Positions 1,205-45,807 of a stretch of 64,000 bases of DNA are shown piece by piece. Position 1 is the stretch's first letter, and each line of letters starts with the position of its first letter. The notes under the pieces were generated by a model. It searched no databases. It was not told the origin of the DNA and saw nothing but the letters and a program-made list of their open reading frames with translations. The DNA is taken from the NCBI GenBank assembly GCA_036654095.1, contig JAVVSR010000001.1:239165-303164 (forward strand). The letters are read 5' to 3'. The position numbers and the translations under genes are program-made. Source of the stretch: Clostridia bacterium (GTDB lineage Bacteria; Bacillota; Clostridia; Christensenellales; CAG-917).

Positions 1205-1280
1205 ACTATTCTAAATAATTGACTTTTTTATAATAGTTTTGTATTATTAAAATAACATATCAAATATAGAGGTCTTTAAT

Positions 1281-6072: not shown

Positions 6073-6508
6073 TTTGCCCCCGTTTAATCTCCTCTTTGGC
6101 AAGTTTATCGCAACGATTGTTGTAATCACTATCAGAGTGACCCTTTACTTTTACAAAACTTACAATGTGTTTATCTAATTCAATCAATAAGTTTTTCCAA
6201 AGGTCAATATTTTTAACCTCATCTTTATTTGCAGTGCGCCAGTCTTTAATTTGCCAAGTTTCTATCCAATTTTTTAAAAAAGGGTCGATAGCATATGCGC
6301 TGTCGCTGTAAATCGTGACCTCACATTTTTCTTTTAATTGGCGAAGACCCTGAATTATTGCAAAAAGTTCCATACGATTATTAGTTGTTTCTTTATTATA
6401 TCCCGAAAAAGCCTTATCGACATTTTTATAAATTAAAATAGCTGCCCAGCCGCCTGCGCCGGGATTGCCACTACAAGCACCGTCAGTATATATATCAACG
6501 TGCTTCAT
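6062..6508 (-). CDS. rnhA: Ribonuclease HI
   Basis: The N-terminus IYTDGACSGNPGAGGWAAIL, followed by TNNRMEL and YSDS, is the classic RNase H type 1 pattern. Confidence 0.9.
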   Translation of the reverse strand: MKHVDIYTDGACSGNPGAGGWAAILIYKNVDKAFSGYNKETTNNRMELFAIIQGLRQLKEKCEVTIYSDSAYAIDPFLKNWIETWQIKDWRTANKDEVKNIDLWKNLLIELDKHIVSFVKVKGHSDSDYNNRCDKLAKEEIKRGQNGK

Positions 6509-15895: not shown

Positions 15896-15914
15896 AATAA
15901 ATTATCTCCTTTAA

Positions 15915-17120
15915 TTACAATATTGCAAGCAGCACACCGGCAGCGACAGCGCTTCCGATAACACCTGCAACGTTAGGCCCCATCGCGTGCATCAACAAGT
16001 AATTGTCGGGGTCATATTGACGACCAACGTCCTGTGCGACGCGGGCTGCCATAGGAACAGCAGAAACACCTGCCGCGCCGATAAGTGGATTGATTTTCCC
16101 ACCAGAAAGTTTGTTCATAAGTTTGCCTAGTAACACGCCACCTGCTGTGCCAAGCGAAAAAGCAAATACACCTAAGAAAAGAATACCTAAAGTTTTCCAA
16201 GTAAGGAAAACAGGCGCGTACGCTTTGCTACCAACGCAAAGGCCAAGGAAGATTGTAATAATGTTAATTAATTCGTTGCTGGCAGTTTTAGTTAAGCGAG
16301 GGACAACGCCCGACTCTTTCATAATATTGCCTAGCATCAACATACCGATAAGCGGCAATGCTGTTGGCAAAACGATACCAATTACAGCGGTTACGACTAT
16401 TGGAAACATTATTTTTTCTTTTTTAGAAACAGGACGAAGTTGCTCCATTTTAATTAATCGTTCTTTCTTTGTAGTTAGAAGCTTCATTATAGGAGGTTGA
16501 ATTACGGGAACGAGAGCCATATAACTGTATGCCGCAATAGATATTGCCGACAGCAAATCTGGAGCAAGTTTAACAGTAACGTAAATTGCCGTAGGGCCGT
16601 CCGCGCCTCCGATAATGCCAATAGCGCCAGCTTCTTGCGGAGTAAAGCCTAAAAGCAATGCGCCAATAAAGGTTATAAAAATACCAATTTGTGCCGCCGC
16701 GCCTAAAAGCATACTTTTCGGGTTGGCAATTAATGGACCAAAGTCGGTCATTGCGCCAATGCCCAAGAAAATCAATGGCGGAAATATAACTAAGTCAACG
16801 CCCTTGTATAAAAAATATAATAAACCGCCCTTCGCTCCAGTTTCGAGGTTAGGCGCTTCAAATAGAACTTCGTGCGCGCCGGGAATGTTAATTAAAAACA
16901 TACCAAACGCAATGCCTAACAGCAACATCGGTTCGTATTGTTTGACGACTGCCAAATAAACTAAAAAGCAGGCTATTCCCAACATCAGCACTAAGCCCCA
17001 AACTCCAAATATGTAGTTTGCAGGAGTATCTACCATCGGACGGGCAAAACCAGTACTTTCCCAAAGGTTTTTAAGCCATTCAAGTAGGTTACCGCCTTTT
17101 GATAAGGTTGTAATAAACAT
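15915..17120 (-). CDS. Na+-translocating decarboxylase beta subunit (OadB/MmdB/GcdB family)
   Basis: Polytopic membrane protein with family-typical segments [11 protein letters not shown] and [13 protein letters not shown]. Confidence 0.9.
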
Positions 17121-17131
17121 AGTTTTACCCC

Positions 17132-17509
17132 CTATGCGATAACTGCAAGCACATCACCACTTTCTACGTTTGCGCCCTTAGCGACAAGCTGAGTAATAAC
17201 ACCATCAGCAGGTGAACCAATTTCGTGTTCCATTTTCATCGCCTCAATAACGAGGATATTTTGACCCTTTTTAACGGTAGCGCCATTTGGAACTTTAAAT
17301 TCAACAATCATACCGGGTAATGGAGATTTAAATTCAACGCCTGCTGGAGTGGCTTTTTTAGGAGCGGCAACAGGAGCGGGGGAAACCACGGGCGCAGATA
17401 CTTTTGCAGCAGGGGCAACAACAGCCATTGGCTCAGTCGCGCCACCCAAAACTTCTTCAACTTCGACCTCGTAGGCTTGGCCGTTTACTTTAATTTTAAA
17501 ATTACGCAT
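17132..17509 (-). CDS. Biotin carboxyl carrier protein (decarboxylase gamma subunit)
   Basis: Ala/Pro-rich linker followed by a biotinyl domain with the attachment motif EAMKMEHEI. Confidence 0.85.
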
Positions 17510-17511
17510 AA

Positions 17512-17898
17512 CTATATCCTCCTAGAGTTAAACTTTTTTATACTTCTGACAACAAACTTTGCGTCGGAGTTGCCCTCGACCGTACTTTCACTTAATACAA
17601 TACTTAGCGCGCCCATAATGGCAGCTATATCGGCATTGTTTGAAACGCTTTCATTTGCCGATGACACAACACTTTCATCTAATGATAAGTCGGGCGCTAA
17701 AATTTCGGCGGCGGCTTTTTTAGCGGCAGCTTTTTTTACGTCGTGTTTACTTATCAACTCAAGCAGTTTCATAAGGTAAATTAAGGCGGTAAGCAAAATA
17801 AAAACCATCACAATACCAATGGCTGTCACTTGTAAACCAAACAACAACTTATCACCTAGGGATTTACCAACTTCGGTTGCGGCTAAAATATTAATCAT
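17512..17898 (-). CDS. OadG/MmdD-like small membrane subunit of the decarboxylase
   Basis: Single N-terminal TM helix followed by an Ala/Lys-rich linker. Its position between the carboxyltransferase and BCCP matches mmdA-D-C-B operons. Confidence 0.6.
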   Translation of the reverse strand: MINILAATEVGKSLGDKLLFGLQVTAIGIVMVFILLTALIYLMKLLELISKHDVKKAAAKKAAAEILAPDLSLDESVVSSANESVSNNADIAAIMGALSIVLSESTVEGNSDAKFVVRSIKKFNSRRI

Positions 17899-17907
17899 AT
17901 TTCACCT

Positions 17908-19308
17908 CTAACCTTCAAGCATAGCTAGTATGCTTGCAAGATATGGCCTAACTTGCGATGGCTCAATAATATTATCAATAAAGCCGTCTTTTGCCGCAAT
18001 AAACGGATTTCCTTCGCGCTCGGTATAGCTTGAAACAAGTTTCTCGCGCGACTGAATAGGATTTTTAGATGCGCCAATTTCATCGAGATACAAAAAGTTT
18101 ACAGCAGTGTCTGCCGTCAATGGAGCAACCGATGCTCCAGGGAAAGCTACAACATAGTCAAACCCAATACCTTTGCTAGCAAGTAATGCGTAAGATAAGC
18201 CAATAGCGCTTCCATATATAACCGAAATTTTGGGTATTTGACTTAAAGCAATAGATAAAAATGCTTCAGACGCATTTGTAGTAACGCCATCTTGCTCACA
18301 TTTTAAACAAGGTTTTGCACCTAAACTATCAACCAATGAAACAAGCGGAATTTGAAAATTATCTAACAAATTTGTAAACGTTTTAATTTTTTTATAAGCC
18401 TTAAATCCAAGTTTCCCACCGTCAAGACTTCCGTCGGTTGCAACAATACCAACGCTTATGCCGTTAATCCTTGCAAGCGCAGTAACAACCTCTTTAGCTG
18501 ACTCATTGTTCAATGAAATATAATCGCCATTGTCGCAAGTAGCTTTCAATAAACTTTCAAGCGAAACTTCGTTATTTAAAGTTTTTGTCGCGCGGTTTGC
18601 GTCATCTTCTGACGGAAGATTGCCCGACAATATACCAAAAATTTCACATAATTTTGTTTTTAGGTCAGAAATCCCACTGTAAGCCAATGTAGACACGCCA
18701 TTTCTGCACGAATTTAACGCGCCAAACAAGTCTTTAGTTGGTAATTTTTCATCTGATTTAGCAGCCACAACATTTGGAGAGCTTAAACTAATCATACCAT
18801 CTTTACCGTCAATAAGCACTATATCGGCAAGGCCGGCATATGCGCTCATAAGCCCTACTGACGAGCCTTTGATAACAGCGATGTGAGGTATATTTCCCTT
18901 CATTTCCGATGCAGCTTTGATAAGTTTTGCATATCCCTCAAGAACACCGACGCCTTCGCCTAAGCGCGCGCCAGCGCTGTCAATGACCGATATAAACGGC
19001 GTACCCGTTTTAATAGCCATTTTAATGCATTTCTCAATTTTGTTGGCCTGAGCAATACTCATACTGCCCTTCATAACCTCAAAATTTTGAACAAAAATAT
19101 AGACAGGCATATCCGCTAACGTCGCGTAACCTGTCAACACTCCTTCCCCCTGCGCCTCTGTTCCGTCCAAAAAGCCTAGTCCTGCGGCAAAAGCATCGGT
19201 TTCAACAAAAGATTTTTTGTCAACAATACCCTCGATGAAAGCTCGAACGCTTTTCGTGGCTTCGGTCAGCTTCGCCGAGTTATCCTTTAGCCTTGAAATA
19301 ATGTCCAT
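17908..19308 (-). CDS. Acyl-CoA carboxyltransferase (MmdA/GcdA-like alpha subunit), divergent
   Basis: Two-domain carboxyltransferase with DSAGARLGEGVGVLEGY in the N-domain. The C-domain oxyanion region is diverged (YGSAIGLSY). The start was set at MDIISRL (ATG 19306-19308), which has an aggagg SD upstream. Confidence 0.75.
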   Translation of the reverse strand: MDIISRLKDNSAKLTEATKSVRAFIEGIVDKKSFVETDAFAAGLGFLDGTEAQGEGVLTGYATLADMPVYIFVQNFEVMKGSMSIAQANKIEKCIKMAIKTGTPFISVIDSAGARLGEGVGVLEGYAKLIKAASEMKGNIPHIAVIKGSSVGLMSAYAGLADIVLIDGKDGMISLSSPNVVAAKSDEKLPTKDLFGALNSCRNGVSTLAYSGISDLKTKLCEIFGILSGNLPSEDDANRATKTLNNEVSLESLLKATCDNGDYISLNNESAKEVVTALARINGISVGIVATDGSLDGGKLGFKAYKKIKTFTNLLDNFQIPLVSLVDSLGAKPCLKCEQDGVTTNASEAFLSIALSQIPKISVIYGSAIGLSYALLASKGIGFDYVVAFPGASVAPLTADTAVNFLYLDEIGASKNPIQSREKLVSSYTEREGNPFIAAKDGFIDNIIEPSQVRPYLASILAMLEG

Positions 19309-19421
19309 TAAGACCTCCTTTAACTTGTTTCGGTACATAAATTATATAATAGAACTTAGGGTTTTGCAACTTAATATACAAACTTAGTGGTTTGTTAAAT
19401 TATAGACTATTTTAAATAAAT

Positions 19422-26402: not shown

Positions 26403-27563
26403 TTACCAATTATCGGTAATTCGCCTAATAATATCCATAAAACTAGCTTTTTCAATAGTTTCGTTAGCAATTAAATCAATTTCGTCAATAACAACGCCCT
26501 TTTTAATTACGACCGCCTTTCCTATTACGTCGCCAGCGCTGATTTTCGCAATAACGCTTGTTGGAAGTTCAAATTTAACTTCAATTTCCGCATTATCTCC
26601 ACGTTTCGTAAAGGCTGTAATATTCTTTTTAGGAACAATTTGAATAGTAGATTTTTTACCTTTTAGAACTTCTACCGAATTGGCTATTTCGGTATTCATA
26701 TTATACAAAACTTTGTTTTCATATGCTCCAAAAGCATAGTTAAACATATTAGATACTTCTTTAAAACGTGTTTTTGAATCGGGAGAGCCAATAATGGTTG
26801 AAACAATACGCATATCTCCACGTTTGGCAGATGCAGCTAAACAGAACATAGCTTCATTTGTAAATCCTGTTTTGCCCGAGTCACAACCTTTATAAAATCT
26901 TGTAAGTTTATTTGTGTTTGTAATTGTGGTGATACGTCCGTCTGGATGAGTATAATCCTCTAACCAAACTTTGCAAAACTCAAAATATTTGTCGTGTTTT
27001 AAAAGCTCGCTAAGCATTACCGAAACATCTTTTGCCGTCGAATGTTGGTTTAATGCAGGTAATCCCGTACAGTTAGCGAAAATTGTATTTTCCATTTTTA
27101 ACTCTTTCGCCCTATTATTCATCATCTTCACAAAACCGCTTTCACTGCCACCTAATCTTTCGGCTAGCGCGTGACTGCTGTCATTAGCCGAAGCAACAAC
27201 AACACTCTTTAAAAGGTTATACACCGTATGCTTTGAATTAGCCGATAAAAACAACTGAGAACCGCCCATCGACGCGCTTTCAGAACTAATTGTAATTTCA
27301 TCATTAAGCGAAAGCTTTTTACTATCAATGGCTTCAAATGTCAACAATGAAGTCATAATCTTAACCATACTTGCAATCGGAAGTTTTTCATTTTCGTTTT
27401 TTGCAAATATTACTGTTTTGGTATCAAAATCCATTACATAAGCTGATTTTGCGGTTATCTCAATGGATTCATTTGCGCTTGCGTTGTCGCTAGTGTTATA
27501 AAAACAAAAACCAAAACTTAGCATTATTACGGATATGGACATAATTAAAATTGCTTTTTTCAT
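26403..27563 (-). CDS. D-alanyl-D-alanine carboxypeptidase (DacA/DacF-like)
   Basis: Signal peptide, then SxxK (ASMVK), SxN (SANDS) and KTG motifs. Confidence 0.85.
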   Translation of the reverse strand: MKKAILIMSISVIMLSFGFCFYNTSDNASANESIEITAKSAYVMDFDTKTVIFAKNENEKLPIASMVKIMTSLLTFEAIDSKKLSLNDEITISSESASMGGSQLFLSANSKHTVYNLLKSVVVASANDSSHALAERLGGSESGFVKMMNNRAKELKMENTIFANCTGLPALNQHSTAKDVSVMLSELLKHDKYFEFCKVWLEDYTHPDGRITTITNTNKLTRFYKGCDSGKTGFTNEAMFCLAASAKRGDMRIVSTIIGSPDSKTRFKEVSNMFNYAFGAYENKVLYNMNTEIANSVEVLKGKKSTIQIVPKKNITAFTKRGDNAEIEVKFELPTSVIAKISAGDVIGKAVVIKKGVVIDEIDLIANETIEKASFMDIIRRITDNW

Positions 27564-27772: not shown

Positions 27773-28360
27773 TTATGATATATATCGTGGACTAATTACA
27801 TTAATTAAATTACCAAAAATTAAAACATATATAACCAAAACAGCTAAATTTATTAAGAATATGATTAATAAAGACCTATAAATTGTATTTCTAATATTTC
27901 CGCAAGAGTTGCACGAACTGTAACTTGACGAATGACAACTATACCCAATTATAATTCTAAAAATTATGCACATCATTAAAAACGTAAATAACATCGTAGG
28001 TATATAAATTAGCAATGCGCTAATAATCGCTCGAAAAACTGAAATTGAAAATATTATTGCAAACGCTTCTCCAATTTTATATCCAAATAAAAAAAACGCC
28101 AGCCACCCTAAAAAAATACATTTAGAAGTAATTGACGCTATTAAAAATAATATATAGATACAAATAAGTAACAGCAAGTACCAAAGTAAAACATATGCAA
28201 CTCCATAGCAGGGTTCAATGTCGTTTAGATTTCCTATGTATAGCGCGCCAAATATAATGCCTAGAAGCATTATGGAAGCCGAACACAAAATTAATGATTT
28301 ATTTTCGCAAAAGAAATCCTTAACCACATATAATATCTGTTGCTTTTTATAAACTTTCAC
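27773..28360 (-). CDS. Polytopic membrane protein, possibly SpoIIM-like
   Basis: About 5 TM helices. The N-terminal organisation (short cytosolic lead, then LLGIIFGALYIG) and the LLIYIPTML segment resemble SpoIIM/DUF95. One loop is Cys/Ser-rich (CHSSSYSSCNSCGN). The similarity was judged by eye only. Confidence 0.35.
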   Translation of the reverse strand: MKVYKKQQILYVVKDFFCENKSLILCSASIMLLGIIFGALYIGNLNDIEPCYGVAYVLLWYLLLLICIYILFLIASITSKCIFLGWLAFFLFGYKIGEAFAIIFSISVFRAIISALLIYIPTMLFTFLMMCIIFRIIIGYSCHSSSYSSCNSCGNIRNTIYRSLLIIFLINLAVLVIYVLIFGNLINVISPRYIS

Positions 28361-28422: not shown

Positions 28423-28782
28423 TTACATGATATTATTTGACAGTTCGCCCGCGCGACATTTAAGCGACATCAATGCAGTTAATATAAACTGCTTATTTGA
28501 TGGTTTTCCTTTTTTCATATCAATAGTTTCACCAAATTCATCGTAAAGCGCCTGAACGTCGCCCTTTAGCCAAGCCGTTGAAATGGCATTTTGCACATCT
28601 TTTTCAATAGCAGAAATCGATTTGTTATATTTTTTTGAAAGCTCAACATATCCAACGTACTTTAAGGGTAAAATTTCAATATCATAAAGCGCGCTTTTAA
28701 TAATATCAAAAAGATATCGGTATCCTAGTTTATTAGGTACAAATCCTAACCTTAATAAATATTCCGTTATTAGTTTTTCCAT
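28423..28782 (-). CDS. Stand-alone Spo0A C-terminal (DNA-binding) domain protein with no receiver domain
   Basis: The 119-aa ORF aligns without gaps to the B. subtilis Spo0A C-domain (recalled from memory). LGYRYLFDII matches KGYLYLREAI; SAIEKDVQNAISTAW matches SRVERAIRHAIEVAW; KGKPSNKQFILTALMSL matches KAKPTNSEFIAMVADKL. A ggagga SD precedes the ATG. The gene sits in the canonical slot downstream of spoIVB. Confidence 0.8.
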   Translation of the reverse strand: MEKLITEYLLRLGFVPNKLGYRYLFDIIKSALYDIEILPLKYVGYVELSKKYNKSISAIEKDVQNAISTAWLKGDVQALYDEFGETIDMKKGKPSNKQFILTALMSLKCRAGELSNNIM

Positions 28783-28883
28783 ATAAGTCCTCCAACTTTA
28801 AGATAACATATATTTGTAAAACATTTTTGAAATATTTTGCACTATTTAATCAAATTTCAATGGTTTTTGTTGCAGGCTTTCAA

Positions 28884-28920
28884 AATAAAAAACGCAACTT
28901 AAAATTTAAGTAGCGTTTTT
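28884..28920 (-). terminator. Rho-independent terminator after spoIVB
   Basis: The stem aacgc..actta / taagt..gcgtt (28891-28917) is followed on the minus strand by UUUUAUUUU. Confidence 0.75.
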
Positions 28921-28943
28921 ATAAAGCATAACAATAATTTATT

Positions 28944-30122
28944 TTACCCACAAGACGATGAAAGCATCCAATTAATGTATACGGCATATCCGCGCGTAGG
29001 GTCATTAATGAATACGTGCGTAACTGCTCCAATTAATTTACCGTTTTGTATTACAGGGCTTCCGCTCATACCCTGAACGATACCACCCGTTATATCTAAA
29101 AGTCGTTTATCCGTAATCGATATAACCATACTTTTAACTTGCGCATTATCCTGCTGCATTGTCTTAACAATATTAATTTCATAATAATCGGGCGCATTTC
29201 CGTTAACCGTTGTATAAACATATGCCTTTCCGTGTTTTATATCCAATTCGCTTCCAACTTTAATTTTTTGCGCGTCTGCGCCAACTTCCGACATTTTACC
29301 AAAAATACCAAATTCGTTGTTATTATTTATTGAACCAACACCATTATCAAAACGATTAAACACACCTCTAAGTTCGCCAGCTGCGCCTTTAACGCCTTTT
29401 TTTACGCCAATAATACTGCAATTATAAACTCTACCCGTATTTAACTCTTTAGATAAACCGGTATCCGTATCAATAATATGATGGCCAAGCGCGCCAAAAC
29501 TTCCATCACTTTTAATATAAGTCAGTGTTCCTATGCCCGATATGCAGTCTTTAATTGAAAGTCCCAATCGCGGTTCTCCCGTCAAAGTGTCCTTTAAAAA
29601 AACCGTATCGACTTCAAAAATATTTCCTCTTCTGTTGATTTTCAATTTAACATTTTTAGTAGCGACATAATTTGCTATTTTTGTAATATCACTTGGATTA
29701 TTTACTTTGTAACCATTTATTGACATTAAAATATCACCATTTTGTATACCGCTGTCAACAAGTGGATTAACTAAACCCTTATCTGTAATTATTGCGTTGG
29801 TTCCTACAATTATCGCGCCTTCCGCGCCAATGGTAACACCCAAAGGTTTTCCGCCTAAATAGACTTCTTCATTTTCTACAAATCTACAATTTAATGTTTT
29901 AATATCTAAAAAATTAAATAATTTGTAATTTAAAATTAAGCCTCCATTATCTTTATGATTGACACACAAAGAAATAGGCGGAGATGGTTCAAGCGCGCTA
30001 AAATCCTCAGTCAAAATCATCGAATCGGTATACTCGATATTCATTAAACTAAGGTTAAACCCCGAAAAAACCGCTGCAACAATAATTAGACATAAAAAAA
30101 TCTTAAACAATACATTTTTCAT
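28944..30122 (-). CDS. spoIVB: SpoIVB peptidase (S55)
   Basis: Signal anchor, PDZ-like region (GDILMSINGYKV), and S55 catalytic regions GTLTYI, GALGH and GMSGSPV. Confidence 0.9.
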   Translation of the reverse strand: MKNVLFKIFLCLIIVAAVFSGFNLSLMNIEYTDSMILTEDFSALEPSPPISLCVNHKDNGGLILNYKLFNFLDIKTLNCRFVENEEVYLGGKPLGVTIGAEGAIIVGTNAIITDKGLVNPLVDSGIQNGDILMSINGYKVNNPSDITKIANYVATKNVKLKINRRGNIFEVDTVFLKDTLTGEPRLGLSIKDCISGIGTLTYIKSDGSFGALGHHIIDTDTGLSKELNTGRVYNCSIIGVKKGVKGAAGELRGVFNRFDNGVGSINNNNEFGIFGKMSEVGADAQKIKVGSELDIKHGKAYVYTTVNGNAPDYYEINIVKTMQQDNAQVKSMVISITDKRLLDITGGIVQGMSGSPVIQNGKLIGAVTHVFINDPTRGYAVYINWMLSSSCG

Positions 30123-30247: not shown

Positions 30248-31951
30248 TTAAAACTTCAATTTATACTCATTACTATGTTTTTTCATAACCATAGCGTGCG
30301 GTATTGCGTGCGTACTGTACGCGCTACCTCCAATAAGCCTAGCAATCTCATTAATTTCGCCATTTTCATCTAATAAAGTCAAGTGGGTATTAGTTTTATC
30401 GCCCTCAACAACCTTCTCGATTTTATAATGCAAGTCGGCCATGCTTGCTAGCTGCGGAAGATGTGTAACCGCTATAACCTGCCTGGAATGTGATATATTA
30501 TAAAGTTTTTCAGCGACAATCTGCGCAATATTGCCACTTATGCCTGAGTCAATTTCATCAAAAACCATTGTACCAATATTGTCCAATTTTGCAATAATAT
30601 TTTTCAAAGCGAGCATAAACCGCGACATTTCGCCACCCGAAATGATTTTTGCAAGCGGTTTCAGTGGCTCGCCGATATTCGCTGAAATTAAAAATTCAAT
30701 CACATCATAACCATTTTCCGTACAACACTTTGGTGTTATATCGTTTTCAAATACAAAGCTAACCTTAAATTTTGAGCCAGACATGCCAAGTTCAGCTAAT
30801 TGAGTATTTATTTCATTTTCAAAAGATTTCGCAAGCGTTTCACGTTGTTTATGCAATGACTTACTTGCATTAACTAGGTTTTCACCCTGCTTTTTAATTA
30901 AATTTTCAAGTTTGGCGCAAGTTTCTTCAGCAGACGAAAGCATTGTATACTCTGCTTTTGCGTTTGACAAAAAATCAAGCGCGCTTGTAATTGTTCCACC
31001 ATATTTTCTAGCTAACGACCTTACTAATTCAATTCTCTTTTCAACCTTTTCGGCAGTAAAGTCATCAAATTGCAAATCCGACAGTTGCGTTTCAAGTGTT
31101 TCAGAAATATCTTGTATTTCAATTTTAGCCACATCAAGCCTATCGGCCATTTCAAGATAATTTTTGTCAAAATCAGAAACCGACATTAACATATTTTTTG
31201 ATTTGCCTATTGCCGACAGCGCAGAAAAACTATCCACGCTTCCGCTTAAAAGTTCAATGCAATCAGTCACTGCATTAACAATTTTTTCAATGTTGCGAAA
31301 TTTTCTTCGTTCAGATATAAGTTCGTCTTCCTCGCCTTCGTGAATGTCAGCCTTTTCAAGCTCATCAATTTGATACGACAACACGTCAATTTTGCGCGCG
31401 CGTTCTTCGGTGTTGCCATACTTTTTATATTCCGCAACACTTTCTTTGTACAAATTAAATGCAGTTTTGCAATCCGATTGTAACTTTAAGATTGAATTTC
31501 CACCATAGTTATCTAACAATGTAATATGCGTTGACGTTCTAAGCAACGACTGGTGTTCGTGTTGACCGTGAATATCTGCAATAAGCTCGGTTAGCCCCTT
31601 TAACATATTTAATGTGCAAGGATGACCATTTATACGACACTCGTTTTTGCCACTTATACTCATTGAACGCTTAATAATTAAGCAATCCTCTGCCGATATG
31701 TCAAGTTCATCTAACTGAACTTTAATCTTATCATTTAAATAATCCTCAAAAACAGCCTCAACAGTCGCGCTTTCCGCTCCAAACCTGATAAGCGTTTTGT
31801 CGGCGCGCTCGCCCAACACAAAATTTAGCGAGTCAATAATTATTGACTTACCTGCGCCTGTTTCACCGCTTAAAATATTTAGACCTTTACCAAGTGTTAT
31901 CGAAAGATTTTCAATTAAAGCAATGTTTTTGATATTTAAAAGGGATAACAT
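30248..31951 (-). CDS. recN: DNA repair protein RecN
   Basis: N-terminal Walker A LSGETGAGKSIIIDS, a long coiled-coil, a C-terminal SGGE signature and Walker B MVFDEIDSG. Confidence 0.95.
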   Translation of the reverse strand: MLSLLNIKNIALIENLSITLGKGLNILSGETGAGKSIIIDSLNFVLGERADKTLIRFGAESATVEAVFEDYLNDKIKVQLDELDISAEDCLIIKRSMSISGKNECRINGHPCTLNMLKGLTELIADIHGQHEHQSLLRTSTHITLLDNYGGNSILKLQSDCKTAFNLYKESVAEYKKYGNTEERARKIDVLSYQIDELEKADIHEGEEDELISERRKFRNIEKIVNAVTDCIELLSGSVDSFSALSAIGKSKNMLMSVSDFDKNYLEMADRLDVAKIEIQDISETLETQLSDLQFDDFTAEKVEKRIELVRSLARKYGGTITSALDFLSNAKAEYTMLSSAEETCAKLENLIKKQGENLVNASKSLHKQRETLAKSFENEINTQLAELGMSGSKFKVSFVFENDITPKCCTENGYDVIEFLISANIGEPLKPLAKIISGGEMSRFMLALKNIIAKLDNIGTMVFDEIDSGISGNIAQIVAEKLYNISHSRQVIAVTHLPQLASMADLHYKIEKVVEGDKTNTHLTLLDENGEINEIARLIGGSAYSTHAIPHAMVMKKHSNEYKLKF

Positions 31952-31958
31952 ATTGAAA

Positions 31959-32411
31959 TTACTCCATCAAAGACTTTAGTTTATCAACAATTCCTTCAAC
32001 CTTATCCAAGCTTTTCACAACAATTAAAATTGTGTCATCGCCAGCAACGCAACCAATAACTTCGGGGAAGCTCATTTTATCAATCAATGCCGCCGCTGAG
32101 TTTGCGCTACCGCTAATAGTTTTAATTACTATTAAGTTAAAAGAAGCGTCAACAGACACCACCGATTCCCTAAATAAGTTTAAAAGTTTGCCCGACGTTT
32201 TCTGTTCTCGAGGTTGAGGTTGCGCATATTTGTAGGTTTTGTTTTGTGTCATCACCTTAATAAGCCCTAAATCCTTGATGTCGCGCGATACGGTCGCTTG
32301 TGTTACATTGTAGCCTTCAATGCGTAAAGCATCGGCCAACGCATCTTGTGTTTCAATTTCATTTTTTGAAATTAGCTCAATAAGTTTAAGCTGTCTGCCG
32401 GTTCTTGCCAT
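31959..32411 (-). CDS. argR: Arginine repressor
   Basis: wHTH motif TQATVSRDIKDLGL and C-terminal GTIAGDDT-like motif GCVAGDDTILIV. The start was set at MARTGRQ, which has a gagagg SD. Confidence 0.9.
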   Translation of the reverse strand: MARTGRQLKLIELISKNEIETQDALADALRIEGYNVTQATVSRDIKDLGLIKVMTQNKTYKYAQPQPREQKTSGKLLNLFRESVVSVDASFNLIVIKTISGSANSAAALIDKMSFPEVIGCVAGDDTILIVVKSLDKVEGIVDKLKSLME

Positions 32412-32460
32412 AACTAACCCTCTCAATCATTAAATATTTATAATTAGTAAAAAACTACAA

Positions 32461-41070: not shown

Positions 41071-41547
41071 TTAATAAGCGCTAATGTGAATTTGCTTTGC
41101 ATTATATTCAGTAGCAGATGTGACTATTGAATATATTTGCGCCACTTCTGCCGATTGAAGGTCATCGTCAGCAACTACAACCGAGCAGTTGTTTTTACTC
41201 ATCGTTACGATAACATCGGTAAATCCTTTTGTTTTGATTAAACTTTCAACGCGCATTTCCTGTTCCATAGCGGTGCAAATGTCAAGTTTTTGTTTTTCTG
41301 CAGAAGTTTTAGCCTCGGTGCTTGAAGTAGATGCCGTCAAAATAGCGTCAAGATAATCAATAATTTCTTGCCGAGTAGTTTGTCGGTCGCTTCTAAATGA
41401 GCTGAATGTTGCGGCAACTGTCGGCGGATTACCACCACTTACCGCTGCATTTGTTAGCTTTTTATTAAGCCAAACATTCAGGAATGCTGATGCTACCAGC
41501 AGTACTATCATTGTAGATAATACTATAATCTTTTTTTTGTTTTTCAT
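41071..41547 (-). CDS. spoIIIAH: Stage III sporulation protein AH
   Basis: Last gene of the spoIIIA operon. It has an N-terminal TM anchor and an extracellular domain. The call rests on operon position and architecture. Confidence 0.65.
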   Translation of the reverse strand: MKNKKKIIVLSTMIVLLVASAFLNVWLNKKLTNAAVSGGNPPTVAATFSSFRSDRQTTRQEIIDYLDAILTASTSSTEAKTSAEKQKLDICTAMEQEMRVESLIKTKGFTDVIVTMSKNNCSVVVADDDLQSAEVAQIYSIVTSATEYNAKQIHISAY

Positions 41548-41556
41548 ATAAACCTC

Positions 41557-42150
41557 CTAGTTATTCATAGTGAATATTTCAATTTTATTTTGTTCAATAT
41601 TTAGCGCTGTCGACGCTGCTCTAAGCAACTCAAGCCTTACTTTAATGCTATTTGCGCCTTCGGCAACAATTATTACGCCCTGTATTTTTGGGCTTAACTC
41701 CTTAACTACCAGTGGAGTTGTTTTTCCGTCAACAGTTATAAGTATTGGCGAAGTAGTTTCATCGGTTGTTGTTGATTTTAAATTCGAACCTCCGCTATCG
41801 TCCTCGCGAGTGGTCGTATTGATTTTTTCCTCTATCGCGGTCACGAGTTCGGTTGTTCCATCGTACGTAATTAAAACTCTAACCTTTCCAGCGCCACTTA
41901 TTGTAGATAAAATACTTTCTAATCTTACTTCGTCGTTAAGATAACCTGCTTCGGTATTGCCGCTAGTCGTCTGACTAACTTTTTTATCTTTACCCAGTGT
42001 CGACGCATACACAAGTAACGCTATCGCTATTAAAATTATGCTAATTATCAACTCAATATTCTTAATTTTTTTAAATCTGTAAAAAATCTCTTGAAAGTTT
42101 ATTTTCTTATGAATATCCGACTGCCCGTCTACCTTTTTATTATCCTCCAT
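41557..42150 (-). CDS. spoIIIAG: Stage III sporulation protein AG
   Basis: TM anchor plus the conserved C-terminal region KVRVLITYDG...PKIQGVIIVAEGA...V...L..A...L.I...KI. Confidence 0.8.
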   Translation of the reverse strand: MEDNKKVDGQSDIHKKINFQEIFYRFKKIKNIELIISIILIAIALLVYASTLGKDKKVSQTTSGNTEAGYLNDEVRLESILSTISGAGKVRVLITYDGTTELVTAIEEKINTTTREDDSGGSNLKSTTTDETTSPILITVDGKTTPLVVKELSPKIQGVIIVAEGANSIKVRLELLRAASTALNIEQNKIEIFTMNN

Positions 42151-42625
42151 ACAGCACCCTCACTTGGTCAAGGTCAAGATTAAGAAAGTTAGAAACAATC
42201 GCTTTGACCTTATTTGATATATCTATATGCGCGCTGTTTTTATCTATGCTAGACTTACTTAAATTTACATTTACATAGTCAATAATAGTCAAATTGCGCG
42301 AATTTTCGACAATGCTAACAGAAGTATTGTCATAGCCTTTCTCCTTTAAAAGTTTTTCAACAGACTTTTCTTTTTCGTAATATTTTTTTGACGCGACATT
42401 ATTTAAAAATTCATTATCCAATTTGATATCGGCCGAAAAGTCAAAAATGGTATCAAAATTTATATCACGATTCAATAGCTTAGGCAGTGGTGATATTATT
42501 ACAAATATAATAACAATAGAAAATATGCCTTTAATGTACTTATTTGTTTGGCCTTCGGGAAGCAAAATGTCGGTAAGTACGCCCAAAATAATTACGCCTA
42601 CTATGCTTAAAACCCACTGACTCAT
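42140..42625 (-). CDS. spoIIIAF: Stage III sporulation protein AF
   Basis: N-terminus WVLSIVGVIILGVLTDILLPEGQTNKYIKGIFSIVII is typical of SpoIIIAF. The start was set at MSQW (ATG 42623-42625), which has an aggagg SD. Confidence 0.8.
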   Translation of the reverse strand: MSQWVLSIVGVIILGVLTDILLPEGQTNKYIKGIFSIVIIFVIISPLPKLLNRDINFDTIFDFSADIKLDNEFLNNVASKKYYEKEKSVEKLLKEKGYDNTSVSIVENSRNLTIIDYVNVNLSKSSIDKNSAHIDISNKVKAIVSNFLNLDLDQVRVLYGG

Positions 42626-42668
42626 ACCATTGATACCTCCTAATTTAAATAACTTAAATAGATTATGC

Positions 42669-43868
42669 CTACACCACACCTAAATTGCAGGTAAACATAA
42701 CCAACATAATCACTATAAAATACATAAATGCTACTCCAAATAAAACAGATAGAAGTAGTGTCATACTTTTAGACAGGCCGTGAAGTAAATCGGCTATTTT
42801 ATTGTCGCAAAGCGGTTCACAGATAGATGATGCAAGCTTTAACGATATTGTAAAAACAATCAATTTGATTATAGGCAACAATATTATTGTTAAAATAATT
42901 AGCAAACCAGTTATACCAAGTGAATTTTTAATTAAAATACAACTTGCAAGCACTAAATCAAACCCGTCGGAAATATATCCGCCCAAAATAGGCACATAGC
43001 TGCTGATTGCAAATTTTGTAGCCGTAATACCAATTCCGTCGATAGTGCGTCCAGCTATGCCCCTAATCGTCACAAACATCATAAATAAACTAAAAACGAT
43101 ACCTAACGTCCATTCGGAAACACTTTTAAAAAAATTGGTAAATTTATCTAACTTAACATTTTTTGATAAGTTGCCAACTATGGTAAACACTATTCCAGCT
43201 ATAAAACACGGAATTATGAAAACTGCAATAATTTTAATAATAAATCCAGTAGAAATCACCATAAGCGGTTGATAAAGCCCCACGCTTGTAACCCCGCCCA
43301 AAGCAGTCATTAAGGTTAAAAATAATGGAAGCATTGCGTCCATAAGCGATTTTAGTCGTAAAACTGTTTCAGAAGTCATTTTTACGTATGATATAATTGT
43401 ATTAAGTAAAAGGATAATAATGGCGGCATAACATACAAAATAAATTATTTCGTTTGTTGACTTATTTAAAAAACCTGAATTTAATCCACTTAAAATTCCA
43501 TATAAAATTGCGATAAATATAATTGATATTAAACTAGGCAAAAAACTAACAAAACTTTTTATAATACTTTGAAACACAACGTTAAACATTTCATCTAAGC
43601 CATCGTCATAGTTACCTTTTGCAATTTTAATTACAATATCGCGCAGATTGTTATTGTTAAACAATTTTTTTTCATCATCTGAGAGGTTATTAAAATAATT
43701 TTCAAGGTCATCGGTTTTCAGCTTGTCAACTTGCTCGTCGACGGAGTCGTCAAGCTGTTCTTCTGCTGTTTTTTCATTGGCTAGTATTATATTATTCGGT
43801 TGATTATAGAACACTATTAGCATTACAAATGTTAAAAATACAAAAATCAACGCTATTTTCCTTTTCAT
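42669..43868 (-). CDS. spoIIIAE: Stage III sporulation protein AE
   Basis: Signal or TM N-terminus followed by ~7 TM helices; 399 aa; operon position. Confidence 0.85.
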   Translation of the reverse strand: MKRKIALIFVFLTFVMLIVFYNQPNNIILANEKTAEEQLDDSVDEQVDKLKTDDLENYFNNLSDDEKKLFNNNNLRDIVIKIAKGNYDDGLDEMFNVVFQSIIKSFVSFLPSLISIIFIAILYGILSGLNSGFLNKSTNEIIYFVCYAAIIILLLNTIISYVKMTSETVLRLKSLMDAMLPLFLTLMTALGGVTSVGLYQPLMVISTGFIIKIIAVFIIPCFIAGIVFTIVGNLSKNVKLDKFTNFFKSVSEWTLGIVFSLFMMFVTIRGIAGRTIDGIGITATKFAISSYVPILGGYISDGFDLVLASCILIKNSLGITGLLIILTIILLPIIKLIVFTISLKLASSICEPLCDNKIADLLHGLSKSMTLLLSVLFGVAFMYFIVIMLVMFTCNLGVV

Positions 43869-44251
43869 TGCACTAATTTTGAAACCACATCAATAAGCGA
43901 AGTCAATATCGGTAAAGCCATTAAAAAAATAACAATCTTACCCGATAGTTGAAGTTTTTTTGCGATGCTTGGCGTGCCATAATCCTCGCAAATGCTTGCG
44001 GAATATTCAGTTAAATACCCTATTCCAATTATTTTTAAAATTCCTTGAAATAGCTTGTCCGATATTCCGCTTTTGTCAACAATTTGATAAAATGCACCAA
44101 TAACTTGGTTAAATGAGTTAATTAGCATAATTAAAATAATTATGCCTGTTGCCAGTGTCGCAAATATAGCAAATTCAGGCTTTGCTGTTTTTAACAACCC
44201 TGCTATTACCGCGCCCAATATTCCTATTCCAATTATCTTAAATATTTCCAT
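43865..44251 (-). CDS. spoIIIAD: Stage III sporulation protein AD
   Basis: 128-aa four-TM protein (IIGIGILGAV...GIGYLTEYSASICEDYG) in the expected operon position. Confidence 0.85.
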   Translation of the reverse strand: MEIFKIIGIGILGAVIAGLLKTAKPEFAIFATLATGIIILIMLINSFNQVIGAFYQIVDKSGISDKLFQGILKIIGIGYLTEYSASICEDYGTPSIAKKLQLSGKIVIFLMALPILTSLIDVVSKLVQ

Positions 44252-44253
44252 TT

Positions 44254-44451
44254 TTAATATAACCCGAAAATTTGCTTTATCGTGTCAAAAAGCCCGCCTA
44301 TCAAGTCCATAACAAGTAAAAGCACTATCACAACACCTGCAATGGTAACAAAATTGCCAATTTCTTCTTTGTCGCTTTTCTTGAGAATTACGTTTATAAC
44401 TGCGGTTAAAATTCCAATACCCGCTATTTTTAAAATAATATCAATTCCCAT
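44254..44451 (-). CDS. spoIIIAC: Stage III sporulation protein AC
   Basis: 65-aa two-TM protein (ILKIAGIGILTAVINVILK) in the expected operon position. Confidence 0.85.
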   Translation of the reverse strand: MGIDIILKIAGIGILTAVINVILKKSDKEEIGNFVTIAGVVIVLLLVMDLIGGLFDTIKQIFGLY

Positions 44452-44452
44452 A

Positions 44453-44953
44453 TCACACCACTATAATCATTAAGGCGACTCCTGTAAGTACGCCAAGTTT
44501 GTAGTACATTCCGCCTTTTTTTGCCAACGCAAGTTCCGCCTGCGCTTCTAAACATAAAAACTTTTGCAAATATCTTTCAAGGTTTATAAGTTCACTTTCG
44601 TAATCGCTTTTTCCTAGCGCAAATAAAAATGTTGAAATTTCCAAAACATCATCGTTAGTTAAATAAATGCTTTTTAAAGATTGCGTGACTTCGGAAATAC
44701 TATTGTATCCAAATAACAATCCGTCAGAATATTTTAATAAAAGCTCATATCCCAAACCCTTTTTATTTAAACAAAAAGTTTTAATAACATCAATTAAAGG
44801 TGTTTTTAAAAACTTAATTTCCGTTTTTAAAACCTCGGCAAAACGTCTAAATATTGAATAAGTTTCATAGCGTATTTTATAAATTCGCTTAATTCCAATT
44901 CCAATATACGAACAGGCGGTCATTAATAAAGCTCCTGAAATTATGGTCAACAT
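44453..44953 (-). CDS. spoIIIAB: Stage III sporulation protein AB
   Basis: 166 aa with an N-terminal TM, a helical soluble domain and a C-terminal TM, in the expected operon position. Confidence 0.75.
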   Translation of the reverse strand: MLTIISGALLMTACSYIGIGIKRIYKIRYETYSIFRRFAEVLKTEIKFLKTPLIDVIKTFCLNKKGLGYELLLKYSDGLLFGYNSISEVTQSLKSIYLTNDDVLEISTFLFALGKSDYESELINLERYLQKFLCLEAQAELALAKKGGMYYKLGVLTGVALMIIVV

Positions 44954-45807
44954 TTTTCAATTACCTTTACGACTGTTCCCGCTTTCACTTGTTTAGAAAG
45001 TACAATTATGACCTGCATAATATCTAATAAAGGCGAAAAAACAGTACTTTTAAGCGCTATATCGCTTTCGGCGTGTACAGAAAGCCCAACTTTAACACCA
45101 GCGCGACAAGCGTCAATTACTGCATCAATTTCCTCCTTTTTAAATACCTCGTCTGAAATAATTACATCAGGATTCATAGCTCGTATGGTGTTTTCATACG
45201 CTATCAATTTCGGCACTCCGCTTATTACGTCGGTATTTACTCCGATATCAAATGTCGGCAATCCTTTAACTTCGGCGCACAATTCAAATCTTTCATCAAT
45301 AACCAATACGTTTAAACCCGAGTTAGATGTCAGCCTGGCAATTTCTCGCAACATTGTAGTTTTTCCTCCTGCCGTCGGCGATATCACTAATGTATTTTTA
45401 AACTCGCCCTTGTCACATATTTTGTTAAATATCTTGTCCGCGCAACCCTTAACTTCTGTCGGTACGCGTATAGTTAAATAACTTAAATACTTTTGCGTTG
45501 TCAATTTTGCGCCGTCCATTACCCCTTCGCCCGCAACTCCAATTCTTATCCCACCTTCATAATGAAGATAACCCCTCACTAAGCTGTCATTTATTGAATA
45601 TACCGAATAACCGCTCGCTACTCCAATGATATAGTCAACATCACTTTTGGAAACAATGTATAAAACATCACCTATTCTCGCATCGCTCCAAACACTGCCA
45701 TTATAAATTCGTAGCGGTTTTCCTATTCGCAACCTCAACTCGCATATTCTTAAACCATAAATAGCGTTTAACATTCCTATTGGCAATAATCTTTCTAAAG
45801 TTTCCAC
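44947..45807 (-). CDS. spoIIIAA: Stage III sporulation protein AA (secretion-type ATPase)
   Basis: Walker A SPTAGGKTTMLREIAR and Walker B VIISDE. The start codon on the track is GTG with no clear SD, so the exact start is uncertain. Confidence 0.85.
   Translation of the reverse strand: METLERLLPIGMLNAIYGLRICELRLRIGKPLRIYNGSVWSDARIGDVLYIVSKSDVDYIIGVASGYSVYSINDSLVRGYLHYEGGIRIGVAGEGVMDGAKLTTQKYLSYLTIRVPTEVKGCADKIFNKICDKGEFKNTLVISPTAGGKTTMLREIARLTSNSGLNVLVIDERFELCAEVKGLPTFDIGVNTDVISGVPKLIAYENTIRAMNPDVIISDEVFKKEEIDAVIDACRAGVKVGLSVHAESDIALKSTVFSPLLDIMQVIIVLSKQVKAGTVVKVIEKC

What the first reader, a model, noticed from the sequence alone, without database searches (positions are those of the whole stretch)
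28423..28943. The spo0A locus encodes only the DNA-binding domain: a receiver-less, diverged Spo0A
Seen in sequence: downstream of recN-spoIVB, where spo0A normally lies, the only gene is a 119-aa ORF. It aligns without gaps to the Spo0A C-terminal effector domain, including the hallmark C-terminal KxKPTN-like motif (KGKPSNKQFI). The 161 nt between it and spoIVB contain a spoIVB terminator and an SD, so there is no room for a ~120-aa receiver domain in any frame. The recognition-helix region reads SAIEKDVQNAISTAW, where the nearly invariant sequence is SRVERAIRHAIEVAW; several DNA-contacting Arg residues are replaced. Established knowledge: in B. subtilis, removing the receiver domain yields a phosphorylation-independent, constitutively active Spo0A. 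The window otherwise encodes a normal-looking sporulation toolkit (spoIIIA operon, spoIVB, ytfJ, dacB). Inference: either sporulation entry in this organism bypasses phosphorylation control at this locus, or this is a specialised Spo0A_C paralog with altered DNA specificity and the true spo0A has moved.
Basis: partly seen in the sequence, partly recalled or inferred. Interest (0 to 1): 0.7.

Follow-up and report, generated by a model that had tools for sequence, protein, structure and literature searches.

The report
Spo0A gene without its receiver domain
At the chromosomal site where spore-forming bacteria keep their phosphorylation-controlled master switch Spo0A, this uncultured gut Clostridium and over 100 related species encode only its DNA-binding half, so entry into sporulation in this lineage is probably not gated by phosphorylation; I could not check whether a normal copy lies elsewhere in the genome.

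Summary
Window 28423-28782 (-) encodes a 119-aa protein that is only a Spo0A_C effector domain. It matches Pfam PF08769 at 2.3e-18 and its model superposes on 1FC3/1LQ1 at TM 0.8. It lies 161 nt downstream of spoIVB, behind a terminator hairpin and with its own Shine-Dalgarno. Six of nine independent contigs were examined and all show the same junction, so it is not an assembly artefact.

It belongs to a tightly conserved, always receiver-less family. The family occurs in 112 GTDB species, all uncultured Clostridia and many labelled Christensenellales. In 134 of 152 loci the gene sits beside spoIVB, in the slot that spo0A normally occupies. Its closest relatives are 250-260-aa proteins with a degenerate pseudo-receiver, and the one whose context I looked up occupies the same slot.

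The best reading is an in-situ Spo0A ortholog that lost phospho-control stepwise. Sporulation genes around it are intact, including spoIIIA, spoIVB, sigE, sigG and sigK. The spoIIGA promoters in these genomes keep a 0A-box core (TGTCG).

Not settled: whether a canonical REC+Spo0A_C gene exists elsewhere in these genomes, because whole genomes were not searchable. The claimed change in DNA specificity is also unproven.

The parts
28423..28782 (-). Receiver-less Spo0A gene: 119 aa, Spo0A_C effector domain only
   Evidence: ORF. PF08769 66.6 bits. AlphaFold pLDDT 91.4 with six helices. TM 0.80 and rmsd about 2 A to 1FC3 and 1LQ1, with no other fold matched.
28789..28793 (-). Shine-Dalgarno GGAGG, 6 nt before the ATG
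   Evidence: Read directly from the sequence.
28831..28860 (-). Promoter-like site TTGAAA-18-AATATT upstream of the gene (consensus match only)
   Evidence: 9 of 12 matches. The region holds no more such sites than shuffled sequence, so this is weak.
28881..28920 (-). Intrinsic-terminator-like hairpin plus U-run ending the spoIVB transcript
   Evidence: RNA fold -16.1 kcal/mol, z = -3.2, 14-bp stem followed by UUUUUUAUUUU.
28944..30122 (-). spoIVB (SpoIVB peptidase S55 with PDZ), the conserved upstream neighbour of spo0A
   Evidence: TIGR02860 354.6 bits against cut-off 305; PF05580 252 bits.
27773..28360 (-). Conserved multi-pass membrane protein of unknown family. It is always paired with the Spo0A_C gene. 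No terminator was seen in the 62-nt gap, so it is possibly co-transcribed here.
   Evidence: No Pfam or NCBIfam hit. Homologs flank the gene in 70 loci. One also follows the pseudo-receiver gene in L157.
30248..32426 (-). recN and argR, the upstream synteny block (nadK-argR-recN-spoIVB)
   Evidence: Pfam families of the called genes in identical contigs; synteny.
26403..27563 (-). dacB-type D-Ala-D-Ala carboxypeptidase, the downstream synteny anchor
   Evidence: PF00768 205 bits and PBP5_C; present in 121 loci.
41071..45807 (-). spoIIIA operon (AA, AB, AD, AE, AF, AG-position ORF, AH): evidence of an intact sporulation programme
   Evidence: Pfam Spore_III_AA, AB, AC/AD, AE, AF and SpoIIIAH. 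The ORF at the AG position has no Pfam hit.

Best explanation
This is the orthologous spo0A gene of an uncultured clostridial lineage, and it has lost its N-terminal receiver (REC) domain. What remains is a 110-120-aa Spo0A_C domain with an intact six-helix fold and helix-turn-helix.

In Bacillus and C. difficile the isolated effector domain binds 0A boxes without phosphorylation. The Bacillus domain also activates transcription on its own (my recollection of the older literature). The protein here should therefore be active whenever it is made. Entry into sporulation in this lineage would then be set by how much protein is produced, or by an unknown partner such as the membrane protein always encoded beside it. 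It would not be set by kinases or a phosphorelay.

Shown here: domain content, fold, position, family-wide conservation, absence of REC locally, the sister pseudo-receiver clade, and intact sporulation genes.

Inferred: that it is the only Spo0A in the genome, that it binds 0A-like boxes, and that it activates spoIIG and other early genes.
For: 1. Domain and fold. Only Spo0A_C is present. The confident model matches only Spo0A effector-domain structures.

2. Family. All 42 protein clusters are 68-124 aa and none carries a REC domain. 112 GTDB species encode a member, and 65 further metagenome loci were found. There are 23 invariant columns and 60% mean column identity.

3. Position. The gene is within 1.2 kb of spoIVB in 134 of 152 loci, 43 co-directional and 91 inverted in place, between spoIVB and dacB.

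4. Conservation. It is the most conserved gene of the neighbourhood in 83 of 111 loci. Median identity to the window is 58%, against 42.5% for SpoIVB and 51% for DacB.

5. Sister group. The C-domain NJ tree gives the family 100% bootstrap. The family plus a clade of 250-260-aa proteins gets 84%. In that clade the N-terminal domain is a pseudo-receiver: D56 is kept, the acidic DD pocket is replaced by N/K-K, and T86 by Y/G. Pfam no longer recognises it as REC. One member, P0197, sits in the same slot: argR-recN-spoIVB-[257 aa]-membrane protein-...-dacB-M50-scpA-scpB-ytfJ. H218N is shared by the pseudo-receiver clade, two weak-REC proteins and the family.

6. No REC domain or remnant and no second Spo0A_C in 1.83 Mb of flanks plus the window.

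7. The programme is intact. The window holds spoIIIA, spoIVB, ytfJ and dacB. Another family member has sigK, ylmC/ymxH, sigG, sigE and spoIIGA within 8 kb.

8. The target promoter keeps its box. 15 of 24 distinct spoIIGA upstream regions in family genomes have CGAC(A), the reverse complement of the 0A core TGTCG. It lies within 16 nt of a conserved GGAAAGA in the -35 region.

9. Literature. The isolated effector domain binds legitimate targets without phosphorylation (PMC3485338).
Against: No whole genome of any family member could be searched, so a canonical REC+Spo0A_C gene elsewhere is not excluded.

Thousands of stand-alone and multi-copy Spo0A_C paralogs exist in other Firmicutes, so accessory copies are common.

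A termite-gut subclade of the family lies away from spoIVB, next to a ParA-like gene. This shows the gene can move.

Three recognition-helix positions conserved in the sampled canonical Spo0A are replaced: R214K, R217Q and H218N. Canonical 0A binding is therefore not assured.

The NJ tree rests on 111 columns and could suffer from long-branch attraction.

All organisms are uncultured, so sporulation itself is unobserved.
Confidence: 0.66

Rival explanations
1. Accessory paralog. The gene is a specialised Spo0A_C-only regulator, for example a competitor or modulator at 0A-like boxes. A canonical phosphorylatable Spo0A encoded elsewhere in the genome remains the master switch.
For: Stand-alone Spo0A_C proteins are very common: 6535 representative hits of many architectures. 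The recognition helix is altered at three conserved positions. spoIIGA promoters keep the canonical TGTCG core, which a canonical Spo0A would read. The termite subclade is not at the spo0A slot. Genome-wide absence of REC+Spo0A_C was not testable.
Against: This reading requires that the true spo0A left the most conserved synteny in Firmicutes. It also requires that a paralog landed in exactly that slot in more than 100 species. The sister clade consists of full-length proteins with a decaying receiver, one of them shown in the same slot, which reads as stepwise loss in place. No second Spo0A_C and no REC was found in 1.83 Mb of flanks. Conservation exceeds that of the neighbouring genes.
Confidence: 0.25
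2. Decaying relic. The lineage is losing sporulation and the truncated gene is a non-functional remnant.
For: All members are uncultured. At least one genome is small (1.53 Mb closed chromosome). Cultured Christensenellaceae are described as non-sporulating (my recollection, not checked).
Against: There are 23 invariant residues and 60% mean column identity across species whose SpoIVB is only about 42% identical. The ORFs are intact in 150 loci with a narrow length range. Expression signals are conserved. spoIIIA, spoIVB, sigE, sigG, sigK and spoIIGA are intact.
Confidence: 0.03
3. Phage- or mobile-element-derived truncated spo0A, like those reported in gut viromes.
For: Truncated effector-only spo0A homologs are reported in gut phages (PMC10294663). 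One INPHARED 'Bacteriophage sp.' record carries a family member at 70% identity.
Against: A scan of 2.9 million viral contigs found no family member. The single 'phage' record is a bacterial fragment with nadK-argR-recN-spoIVB-...-scpB. It is 97.4% identical over 12.3 kb to the closed chromosome CP091734.1. The other phage hits are only 25-35% identical. The flanks are housekeeping and sporulation genes.
Confidence: 0.02
4. Assembly or gene-calling artefact that removed the receiver-coding part.
For: None beyond the a priori possibility.
Against: Six independent assemblies share the junction, two with SNPs but no indels. Only 5 codons are open upstream. The same architecture occurs in about 150 loci from different studies.
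Confidence: 0.01

Closest known systems
Canonical Spo0A (TIGR02875; REC + Spo0A_C), e.g. B. subtilis and C. difficile
   Same: The effector-domain fold is the same (TM 0.8 to 1FC3 and 1LQ1). The chromosomal slot downstream of spoIVB is the same. E213, W224, the FG.T motif and the KGKP(S/T)N loop are retained. Sporulation sigma-factor genes and a 0A-core box upstream of spoIIGA are present in the same genomes.
   Different: There is no receiver domain, so no phospho-acceptor Asp and no site for kinases, a phosphorelay or Spo0E-type phosphatases. Recognition-helix residues are changed to K, Q and N at R214, R217 and H218 (B. subtilis numbering, from memory). It scores 63 bits against the TIGR02875 cut-off of 200.
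Engineered or proteolytic Spo0A effector domain (Spo0A-DBD; receiver deletions such as sad67)
   Same: It has the same domain content as the laboratory fragment. That fragment binds 0A boxes without phosphorylation (PMC3485338). It also activates transcription constitutively (my recollection of the Ireton 1993 and Grimsley 1994 work cited in PMC10294663).
   Different: This one is a natural, conserved gene in more than 100 species rather than a mutant. Its activity has not been measured.
Pseudo-receiver Spo0A-like proteins (P0070, P0193-P0201, P0197; about 255 aa; named by NCBI only as 'Spo0A C-terminal domain-containing protein')
   Same: This is the sister clade in the C-domain tree (84% bootstrap). 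One member occupies the same slot with the same membrane-protein neighbour (L157). H218N is shared.
   Different: They still carry an N-terminal REC-fold domain in which the acidic pocket is replaced and the T/K switch residues are mostly lost. They keep R214 and R217. Most have lost the FGYT motif that the receiver-less family keeps.
Phage-encoded truncated Spo0A (Schwartz et al. 2023, PMC10294663) and other stand-alone or tandem Spo0A_C proteins (Pfam PF08769 single-domain architectures)
   Same: The architecture is effector-domain-only.
   Different: The context here is chromosomal and syntenic with spoIVB, and no viral contig carries the family. It is only 25-35% identical to the phage copies. 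It is far more conserved and forms its own clade.

Membership tests
Spo0A, sporulation master response regulator (TIGR02875 equivalog) | N-terminal receiver (REC, PF00072) domain with phospho-acceptor Asp | tested here: not met
   Pfam and NCBIfam see only the C-domain. Only 5 codons are open upstream. A REC HMM finds nothing in the window or in 1.83 Mb of flanks.
Spo0A, sporulation master response regulator (TIGR02875 equivalog) | C-terminal Spo0A_C effector domain (PF08769) with the six-helix HTH fold | tested here: met
   66.6 bits against cut-off 25. Profile hit to 1LQ1 at 9.5e-20. Model pLDDT 91 and TM 0.80 to 1FC3 and 1LQ1.
Spo0A, sporulation master response regulator (TIGR02875 equivalog) | Whole-protein score above the curated equivalog cut-off | tested here: not met
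   63.1 bits against cut-off 200; only model positions 149-255 are matched.
Spo0A, sporulation master response regulator (TIGR02875 equivalog) | Conserved position immediately downstream of spoIVB (recN-spoIVB-spo0A) | tested here: met
   161 nt downstream of spoIVB in the window. Adjacent to spoIVB in 134 of 152 family loci.
Spo0A, sporulation master response regulator (TIGR02875 equivalog) | Conserved recognition helix (S/N)RVERAIRHAIE | tested here: not met
   The family reads (I/V)EK(D/N)(I/V)QNAIS. K61, Q64 and N65 are invariant in place of R214, R217 and H218, and E213 is kept in all but one sampled member.
Spo0A, sporulation master response regulator (TIGR02875 equivalog) | Binds 0A boxes (TGTCGAA) and activates early sporulation promoters such as spoIIG | not testable with these tools
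   Indirect only. 15 of 24 distinct spoIIGA upstream regions in family genomes keep CGAC(A), the TGTCG core, just upstream of the -35 region. Which protein reads it is unknown.
Spo0A, sporulation master response regulator (TIGR02875 equivalog) | Single copy and essential for sporulation in its genome | not testable with these tools
   No whole genome was accessible. The capped canonical search was uninformative. The organisms are uncultured.
Stand-alone Spo0A_C proteins (PF08769 single-domain architecture) | Spo0A_C is the only recognisable domain and the length is about one domain | tested here: met
   119 aa with only PF08769. All 42 family clusters are 68-124 aa.
Phage-encoded truncated Spo0A | Encoded on a phage or prophage genome | tested here: not met
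   No family member among 2.9 million viral contigs. The flanks are chromosomal housekeeping and sporulation genes. The one 'phage' record is a bacterial fragment.
Pseudo-receiver Spo0A-like clade (P0197 type) | N-terminal REC-fold domain lacking the acidic pocket | tested here: not met
   No N-terminal domain is present at all. This is the sister clade, not a member.

The most novel reading that the evidence does not exclude
In a whole clade of uncultured gut Clostridia (112 or more species), the only Spo0A is a naturally receiver-less effector domain that is active without phosphorylation. It would have been reached through a pseudo-receiver intermediate. These bacteria would then enter sporulation without any kinase, phosphorelay or phosphatase input. 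The decision would be made by transcriptional or translational dosage of a mostly leaderless mRNA, or by the co-conserved membrane protein. Sporulation might even be an obligatory, cell-cycle-coupled step of their life cycle.
Probability: 0.55. Interest if true: 0.85.

Novelty: new variant of a known kind. Interest (0 to 1): 0.62.

Why it matters
Spo0A is described as a REC + Spo0A_C response regulator encoded by all known sporulators, whose phosphorylation starts spore development (PMC6136694). That description underlies genomic prediction of sporulation. A large natural clade whose spo0A ortholog has no receiver, plus a sister clade with a dead receiver, would show that the phospho-switch is dispensable. 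It would also offer a natural experiment on how a developmental decision is rewired.

There are practical consequences.
- 'spo0A present' marker screens of MAGs count these genes without noticing the missing domain.
- Equivalog models such as TIGR02875 miss them.
- At least one 'phage-encoded truncated spo0A' in a phage database is really this bacterial gene. This bears on claims that gut phages carry spo0A.

Tried and rejected
1. Whole-genome test for a canonical Spo0A.
This was useful for synteny, but the closed chromosome CP091734.1 could not be rescanned afterwards.
The search scored 8000 candidates but listed only 120. None came from family genomes, so it was uninformative.

2. Read-level check. 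The look-up of sequencing runs listed no run. I substituted a comparison of six independent assemblies.

3. Literature. Four searches found no description of a chromosomal receiver-less or pseudo-receiver Spo0A ortholog. The search was badly designed and mostly returned noise. I could not find a text source listing which residues contact which bases.

4. Autoregulatory 0A-like box. TATGACAAA (reverse complement TTTGTCATA) is 25-fold enriched upstream of the gene, in 42 of 80 loci. By my arithmetic from the coordinates, it keeps a roughly constant distance of about 31-44 nt to the divergent membrane-protein gene. This holds both where it is at -79 and where it is at -49 from the Spo0A_C start. 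Its geometry, TTGTCA-17-extended -10, fits that gene's -35 element. I therefore do not claim it as an operator of Spo0A_C.

5. Identity of the membrane-protein neighbour. I suspected SpoIIM, but there was no Pfam or NCBIfam hit even at E = 10.

6. Phage origin was rejected.

Full report
THE OBSERVATION. Window 28423-28782 (- strand) is a 119-aa ORF with an ATG start. A GGAGG lies 6 nt upstream, and only five codons are open before the next upstream stop. Pfam finds one domain, Spo0A_C, at 66.6 bits covering residues 5-103. The full-length Spo0A equivalog TIGR02875 matches only its positions 149-255 and scores 63 bits against a cut-off of 200. The upstream gene is spoIVB (TIGR02860, 354 bits), preceded by recN, argR and nadK. 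Downstream come a membrane protein with no Pfam or NCBIfam match, dacB, lysA, an M50 protease, scpA and scpB.

The 161-nt spacer holds a 14-bp hairpin followed by a U-run (fold z = -3.2). It also holds a weak promoter-like site. A REC-domain HMM found nothing in any six-frame segment of the whole 64-kb window. Nine contigs from different assemblies carry the identical protein. The six examined share the 900-nt junction, four exactly and two with 3-4 SNPs and no indels. An assembly deletion is therefore excluded. Raw reads could not be inspected.

WHAT THE PROTEIN IS. A profile of the family hits the two solved Spo0A effector domains, 1LQ1 at 9.5e-20 and 1FC3. The alignment runs end to end with a single one-residue gap. 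An AlphaFold model (pLDDT 91.4) has six helices. In the PDB it matches only those two entries, at TM 0.80 and rmsd about 2 A.

Against the B. subtilis domain, E213, W224, F236-G237, T239 and the K-P-x-N loop are retained. R214, R217 and H218 are K, Q and N (numbering from my memory of the 267-aa protein; alignment). Those three replacements are invariant in the family.

A FAMILY, NOT A ONE-OFF. The protein database returned 42 clusters, all 68-124 aa and all Spo0A_C only. Their alignment has 23 invariant columns and 60% mean column identity. The signature motifs are IEKD(I/V)QNAIS.AWLKGD and EFGETIDMKKGKP(S/T)NKQFI.

A scan of one genome per GTDB species found 112 species with a member. All are uncultured MAGs labelled Clostridia, Clostridiales, Christensenellales, Christensenellaceae or Christensenella, or mislabelled bins. 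One is a closed 1.53-Mb chromosome, CP091734.1. Sixty-five further loci came from metagenomes, mostly human gut. No viral contig carries the family.

POSITION. In 134 of 152 loci the gene lies within 1.2 kb of spoIVB, between spoIVB and dacB. In 43 loci, including the window, it is co-directional with its neighbours. In 91 it is inverted in place. A termite-gut subclade is the exception and lies next to a ParA-like gene.

The gene is the most conserved of its neighbourhood in 83 of 111 loci. Median identity to the window is 58%, against 42.5% for SpoIVB and 51% for DacB. No REC domain or remnant and no second Spo0A_C occurs in 1.83 Mb of flanks.

WHERE IT CAME FROM. An exhaustive profile search gave 6535 hits of many architectures. 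These include stand-alone copies, proteins with two to four tandem copies, and one 3516-aa protein with 27 matched stretches. Family representatives score 117 bits or more. The best REC-bearing protein scores 94 bits.

The best full-length protein, P0070, has an N-terminal domain that Pfam does not recognise as REC. It belongs to a clade of 250-260-aa proteins. Their N-domain aligns to REC and keeps the Asp56 equivalent. The acidic DD pocket is replaced by N/K-K, and the switch Thr by Tyr or Gly. This makes it a pseudo-receiver.

One member, P0197 on an 899-kb contig of GCA_002919055.1, sits in the same slot: argR-recN-spoIVB-[257 aa]-homologous membrane protein-...-dacB-M50-scpA-scpB-ytfJ. 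A neighbour-joining tree of C-domains makes the receiver-less family monophyletic in 100 of 100 bootstraps. It groups the family with the pseudo-receiver clade in 84 of 100. H218N is shared by both and by two weak-REC proteins, while R214K and R217Q are family-specific. The simplest history is decay of the receiver in place, followed by its deletion. The caveat is 111 columns, NJ only, and possible long-branch attraction.

IS SPORULATION STILL THERE? The window has spoIIIAA, AB, AD, AE, AF and AH, spoIVB, ytfJ and two dacB-type genes. A family member from the inverted class has sigK, ylmC/ymxH, sigG, sigE and spoIIGA within 8 kb. sigE, sigG and sigK homologs are found in about 80 of the fetched loci.

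In 24 distinct spoIIGA upstream regions a GGAAAGA-like element occupies the -35 region at a fixed distance from a -10 hexamer. Fifteen of the 24 have CGAC(A), the reverse complement of the 0A-box core TGTCG, within 16 nt upstream. The structure-based contacts reported for the 0A box are to G2, C4 and G5 of TGTCGAA (PMC3485338), and all three are in that core. So the classical Spo0A-to-spoIIG wiring appears to be kept. The data give no sign of a shifted target sequence. It is equally what one would see if a canonical Spo0A existed elsewhere.

HOW IT MOST LIKELY WORKS. The isolated effector domain of Bacillus and C. difficile Spo0A binds legitimate targets without phosphorylation (PMC3485338). 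Receiver deletions give constitutive activity in B. subtilis (my recollection of work cited in PMC10294663). A natural receiver-less ortholog should therefore be active when present, and control must shift to its synthesis or to a partner.

Two features fit this. First, most family genes look leaderless. In 46 of 58 distinct upstream regions of the inverted class, a TAnnnT hexamer ends 5-9 nt before the GTG or ATG start, with no Shine-Dalgarno. Thirty-six of these carry a TGn extension. The background rates are 7.5% and 0.5%. The window gene itself is leadered. Second, an uncharacterised membrane protein is always paired with the gene, either downstream of it or divergently transcribed. The pseudo-receiver gene has the same partner. 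Both points are inference.

WHAT IS NOT SETTLED. I could not search any complete genome for a REC+Spo0A_C protein. The one attempt was capped and uninformative. The rival that this is an accessory paralog beside a relocated canonical spo0A therefore keeps about a quarter of the probability.

COMPARISON WITH THE KNOWN. The literature I could search describes Spo0A as REC + Spo0A_C in all known sporulators (PMC6136694). It reports effector-only homologs only in gut phages (PMC10294663). Databases already label these proteins 'Spo0A C-terminal domain-containing protein'. I found no description of a chromosomal, syntenic, receiver-less or pseudo-receiver Spo0A lineage. I rate it a new variant of a known kind.

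Noticed in passing
L159 (MT835614.1, 1-18793); match at 6473-6793: This INPHARED record is titled 'UNVERIFIED: Bacteriophage sp.' and comes from a human faecal virome. It carries a family member at 70% identity. It is in fact a bacterial chromosomal fragment (nadK-argR-recN-spoIVB-Spo0A_C-membrane-dacB-M50-scpA-scpB). It is 97.4% identical over 12.3 kb to the closed chromosome CP091734.1. Counts of 'phage-encoded truncated spo0A' may include such contaminants.
   Followed up: yes
L029-L085 and L099-L151, the 20 nt before the Spo0A_C start codon (e.g. L087 9980-10003): Most family genes are predicted to be leaderless. An extended -10 (TGnTAnnnT) ends 5-9 nt before a GTG or ATG start, and there is no Shine-Dalgarno. 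This holds in 46 of 58 distinct inverted-class upstream regions, against a 7.5% background. spoIIGA, and in the one locus inspected (L087) the membrane-protein gene, show the same design. Leaderless mRNAs may therefore be frequent in this lineage.
   Followed up: partly
L157 8001-8774 (GCA_002919055.1, PPCM01000005.1) and proteins P0070, P0193-P0201, P0210-P0225: This is a clade of about 255-aa Spo0A-like proteins whose receiver is a pseudo-receiver. Asp56 is kept, the DD pocket is replaced by N/K-K, and the switch Thr is lost. P0197, the member at L157, sits in the spo0A slot. Most members have also lost the FGYT motif of the effector domain.
   Followed up: partly
L154 6947-7288 (also L020-L027, L155, L156): A termite-gut subclade of the family (variant motifs LPLSKNGY and FGSTIDMKKGKPSNKHF) is not next to spoIVB. 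It lies between a GH18 gene and a ParA/MipZ-like ATPase gene. What occupies the spoIVB slot in those genomes is unknown.
   Followed up: partly
window 27773-28360 (-); homologs e.g. L087 9296-9889 and L157 8795-9433: A multi-pass membrane protein with no Pfam or NCBIfam family is invariably paired with the Spo0A_C gene. It is downstream and possibly co-transcribed in the window. In the inverted class it is divergently transcribed. The pseudo-receiver gene has the same partner. It is a candidate functional partner.
   Followed up: partly
L029-L086, 49 or 79-81 nt upstream of the Spo0A_C start (e.g. L087 9920-9928): TATGACAAA (reverse complement TTTGTCATA, 0A-box-like with G5 changed to A) occurs in 42 of 80 loci against 2% background. 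By my arithmetic from the hit coordinates, it keeps about 31-44 nt to the divergent membrane-gene start. It fits TTGTCA-17-extended -10, so it is probably that gene's -35. A second element, TTTG(C/T)CAAATA, lies about 22 nt upstream of the Spo0A_C -10 in one subclade.
   Followed up: partly
spoIIGA upstream regions, e.g. L087 17726-17800 (-): All 24 distinct spoIIGA upstream regions have GGAA(A/T)(G/T), mostly GGAAAGA, in the -35 region. Fifteen have a CGAC(A) 0A-core within 16 nt upstream. I could not assign the GGAAAGA element to any sigma-factor consensus I know.
   Followed up: partly
proteins P0043, P0044, P0050, P0054, P0072: These proteins are built of two to four tandem Spo0A_C domains. 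One 3516-aa protein has 27 matched stretches. They are numerous in the representative library and I did not examine their context.
   Followed up: no
L057 5434-6102, L059 3461-4009, L066 5980-6843: Three family members have ORFs of 182-287 aa because the frame stays open beyond the usual stop. This could be a C-terminal extension, a fusion or a sequencing error. None of the extensions is a REC domain.
   Followed up: no
window 146-3266 (+): A phage-type tyrosine integrase (352 aa) is followed by a 661-aa protein with an N-terminal PadR domain. They are among the few + strand genes at the window edge and may mark a mobile-element boundary.
   Followed up: no
window 41557-42150 (-): The ORF at the spoIIIAG position of the spoIIIA operon (197 aa) has no Pfam hit, unlike its neighbours. 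spoIIIAC is too short to have been listed. A 774-aa IspH(LytB)-S1 fusion lies at 9161-11485. A Na+-translocating decarboxylase operon lies at 14495-19338.
   Followed up: no
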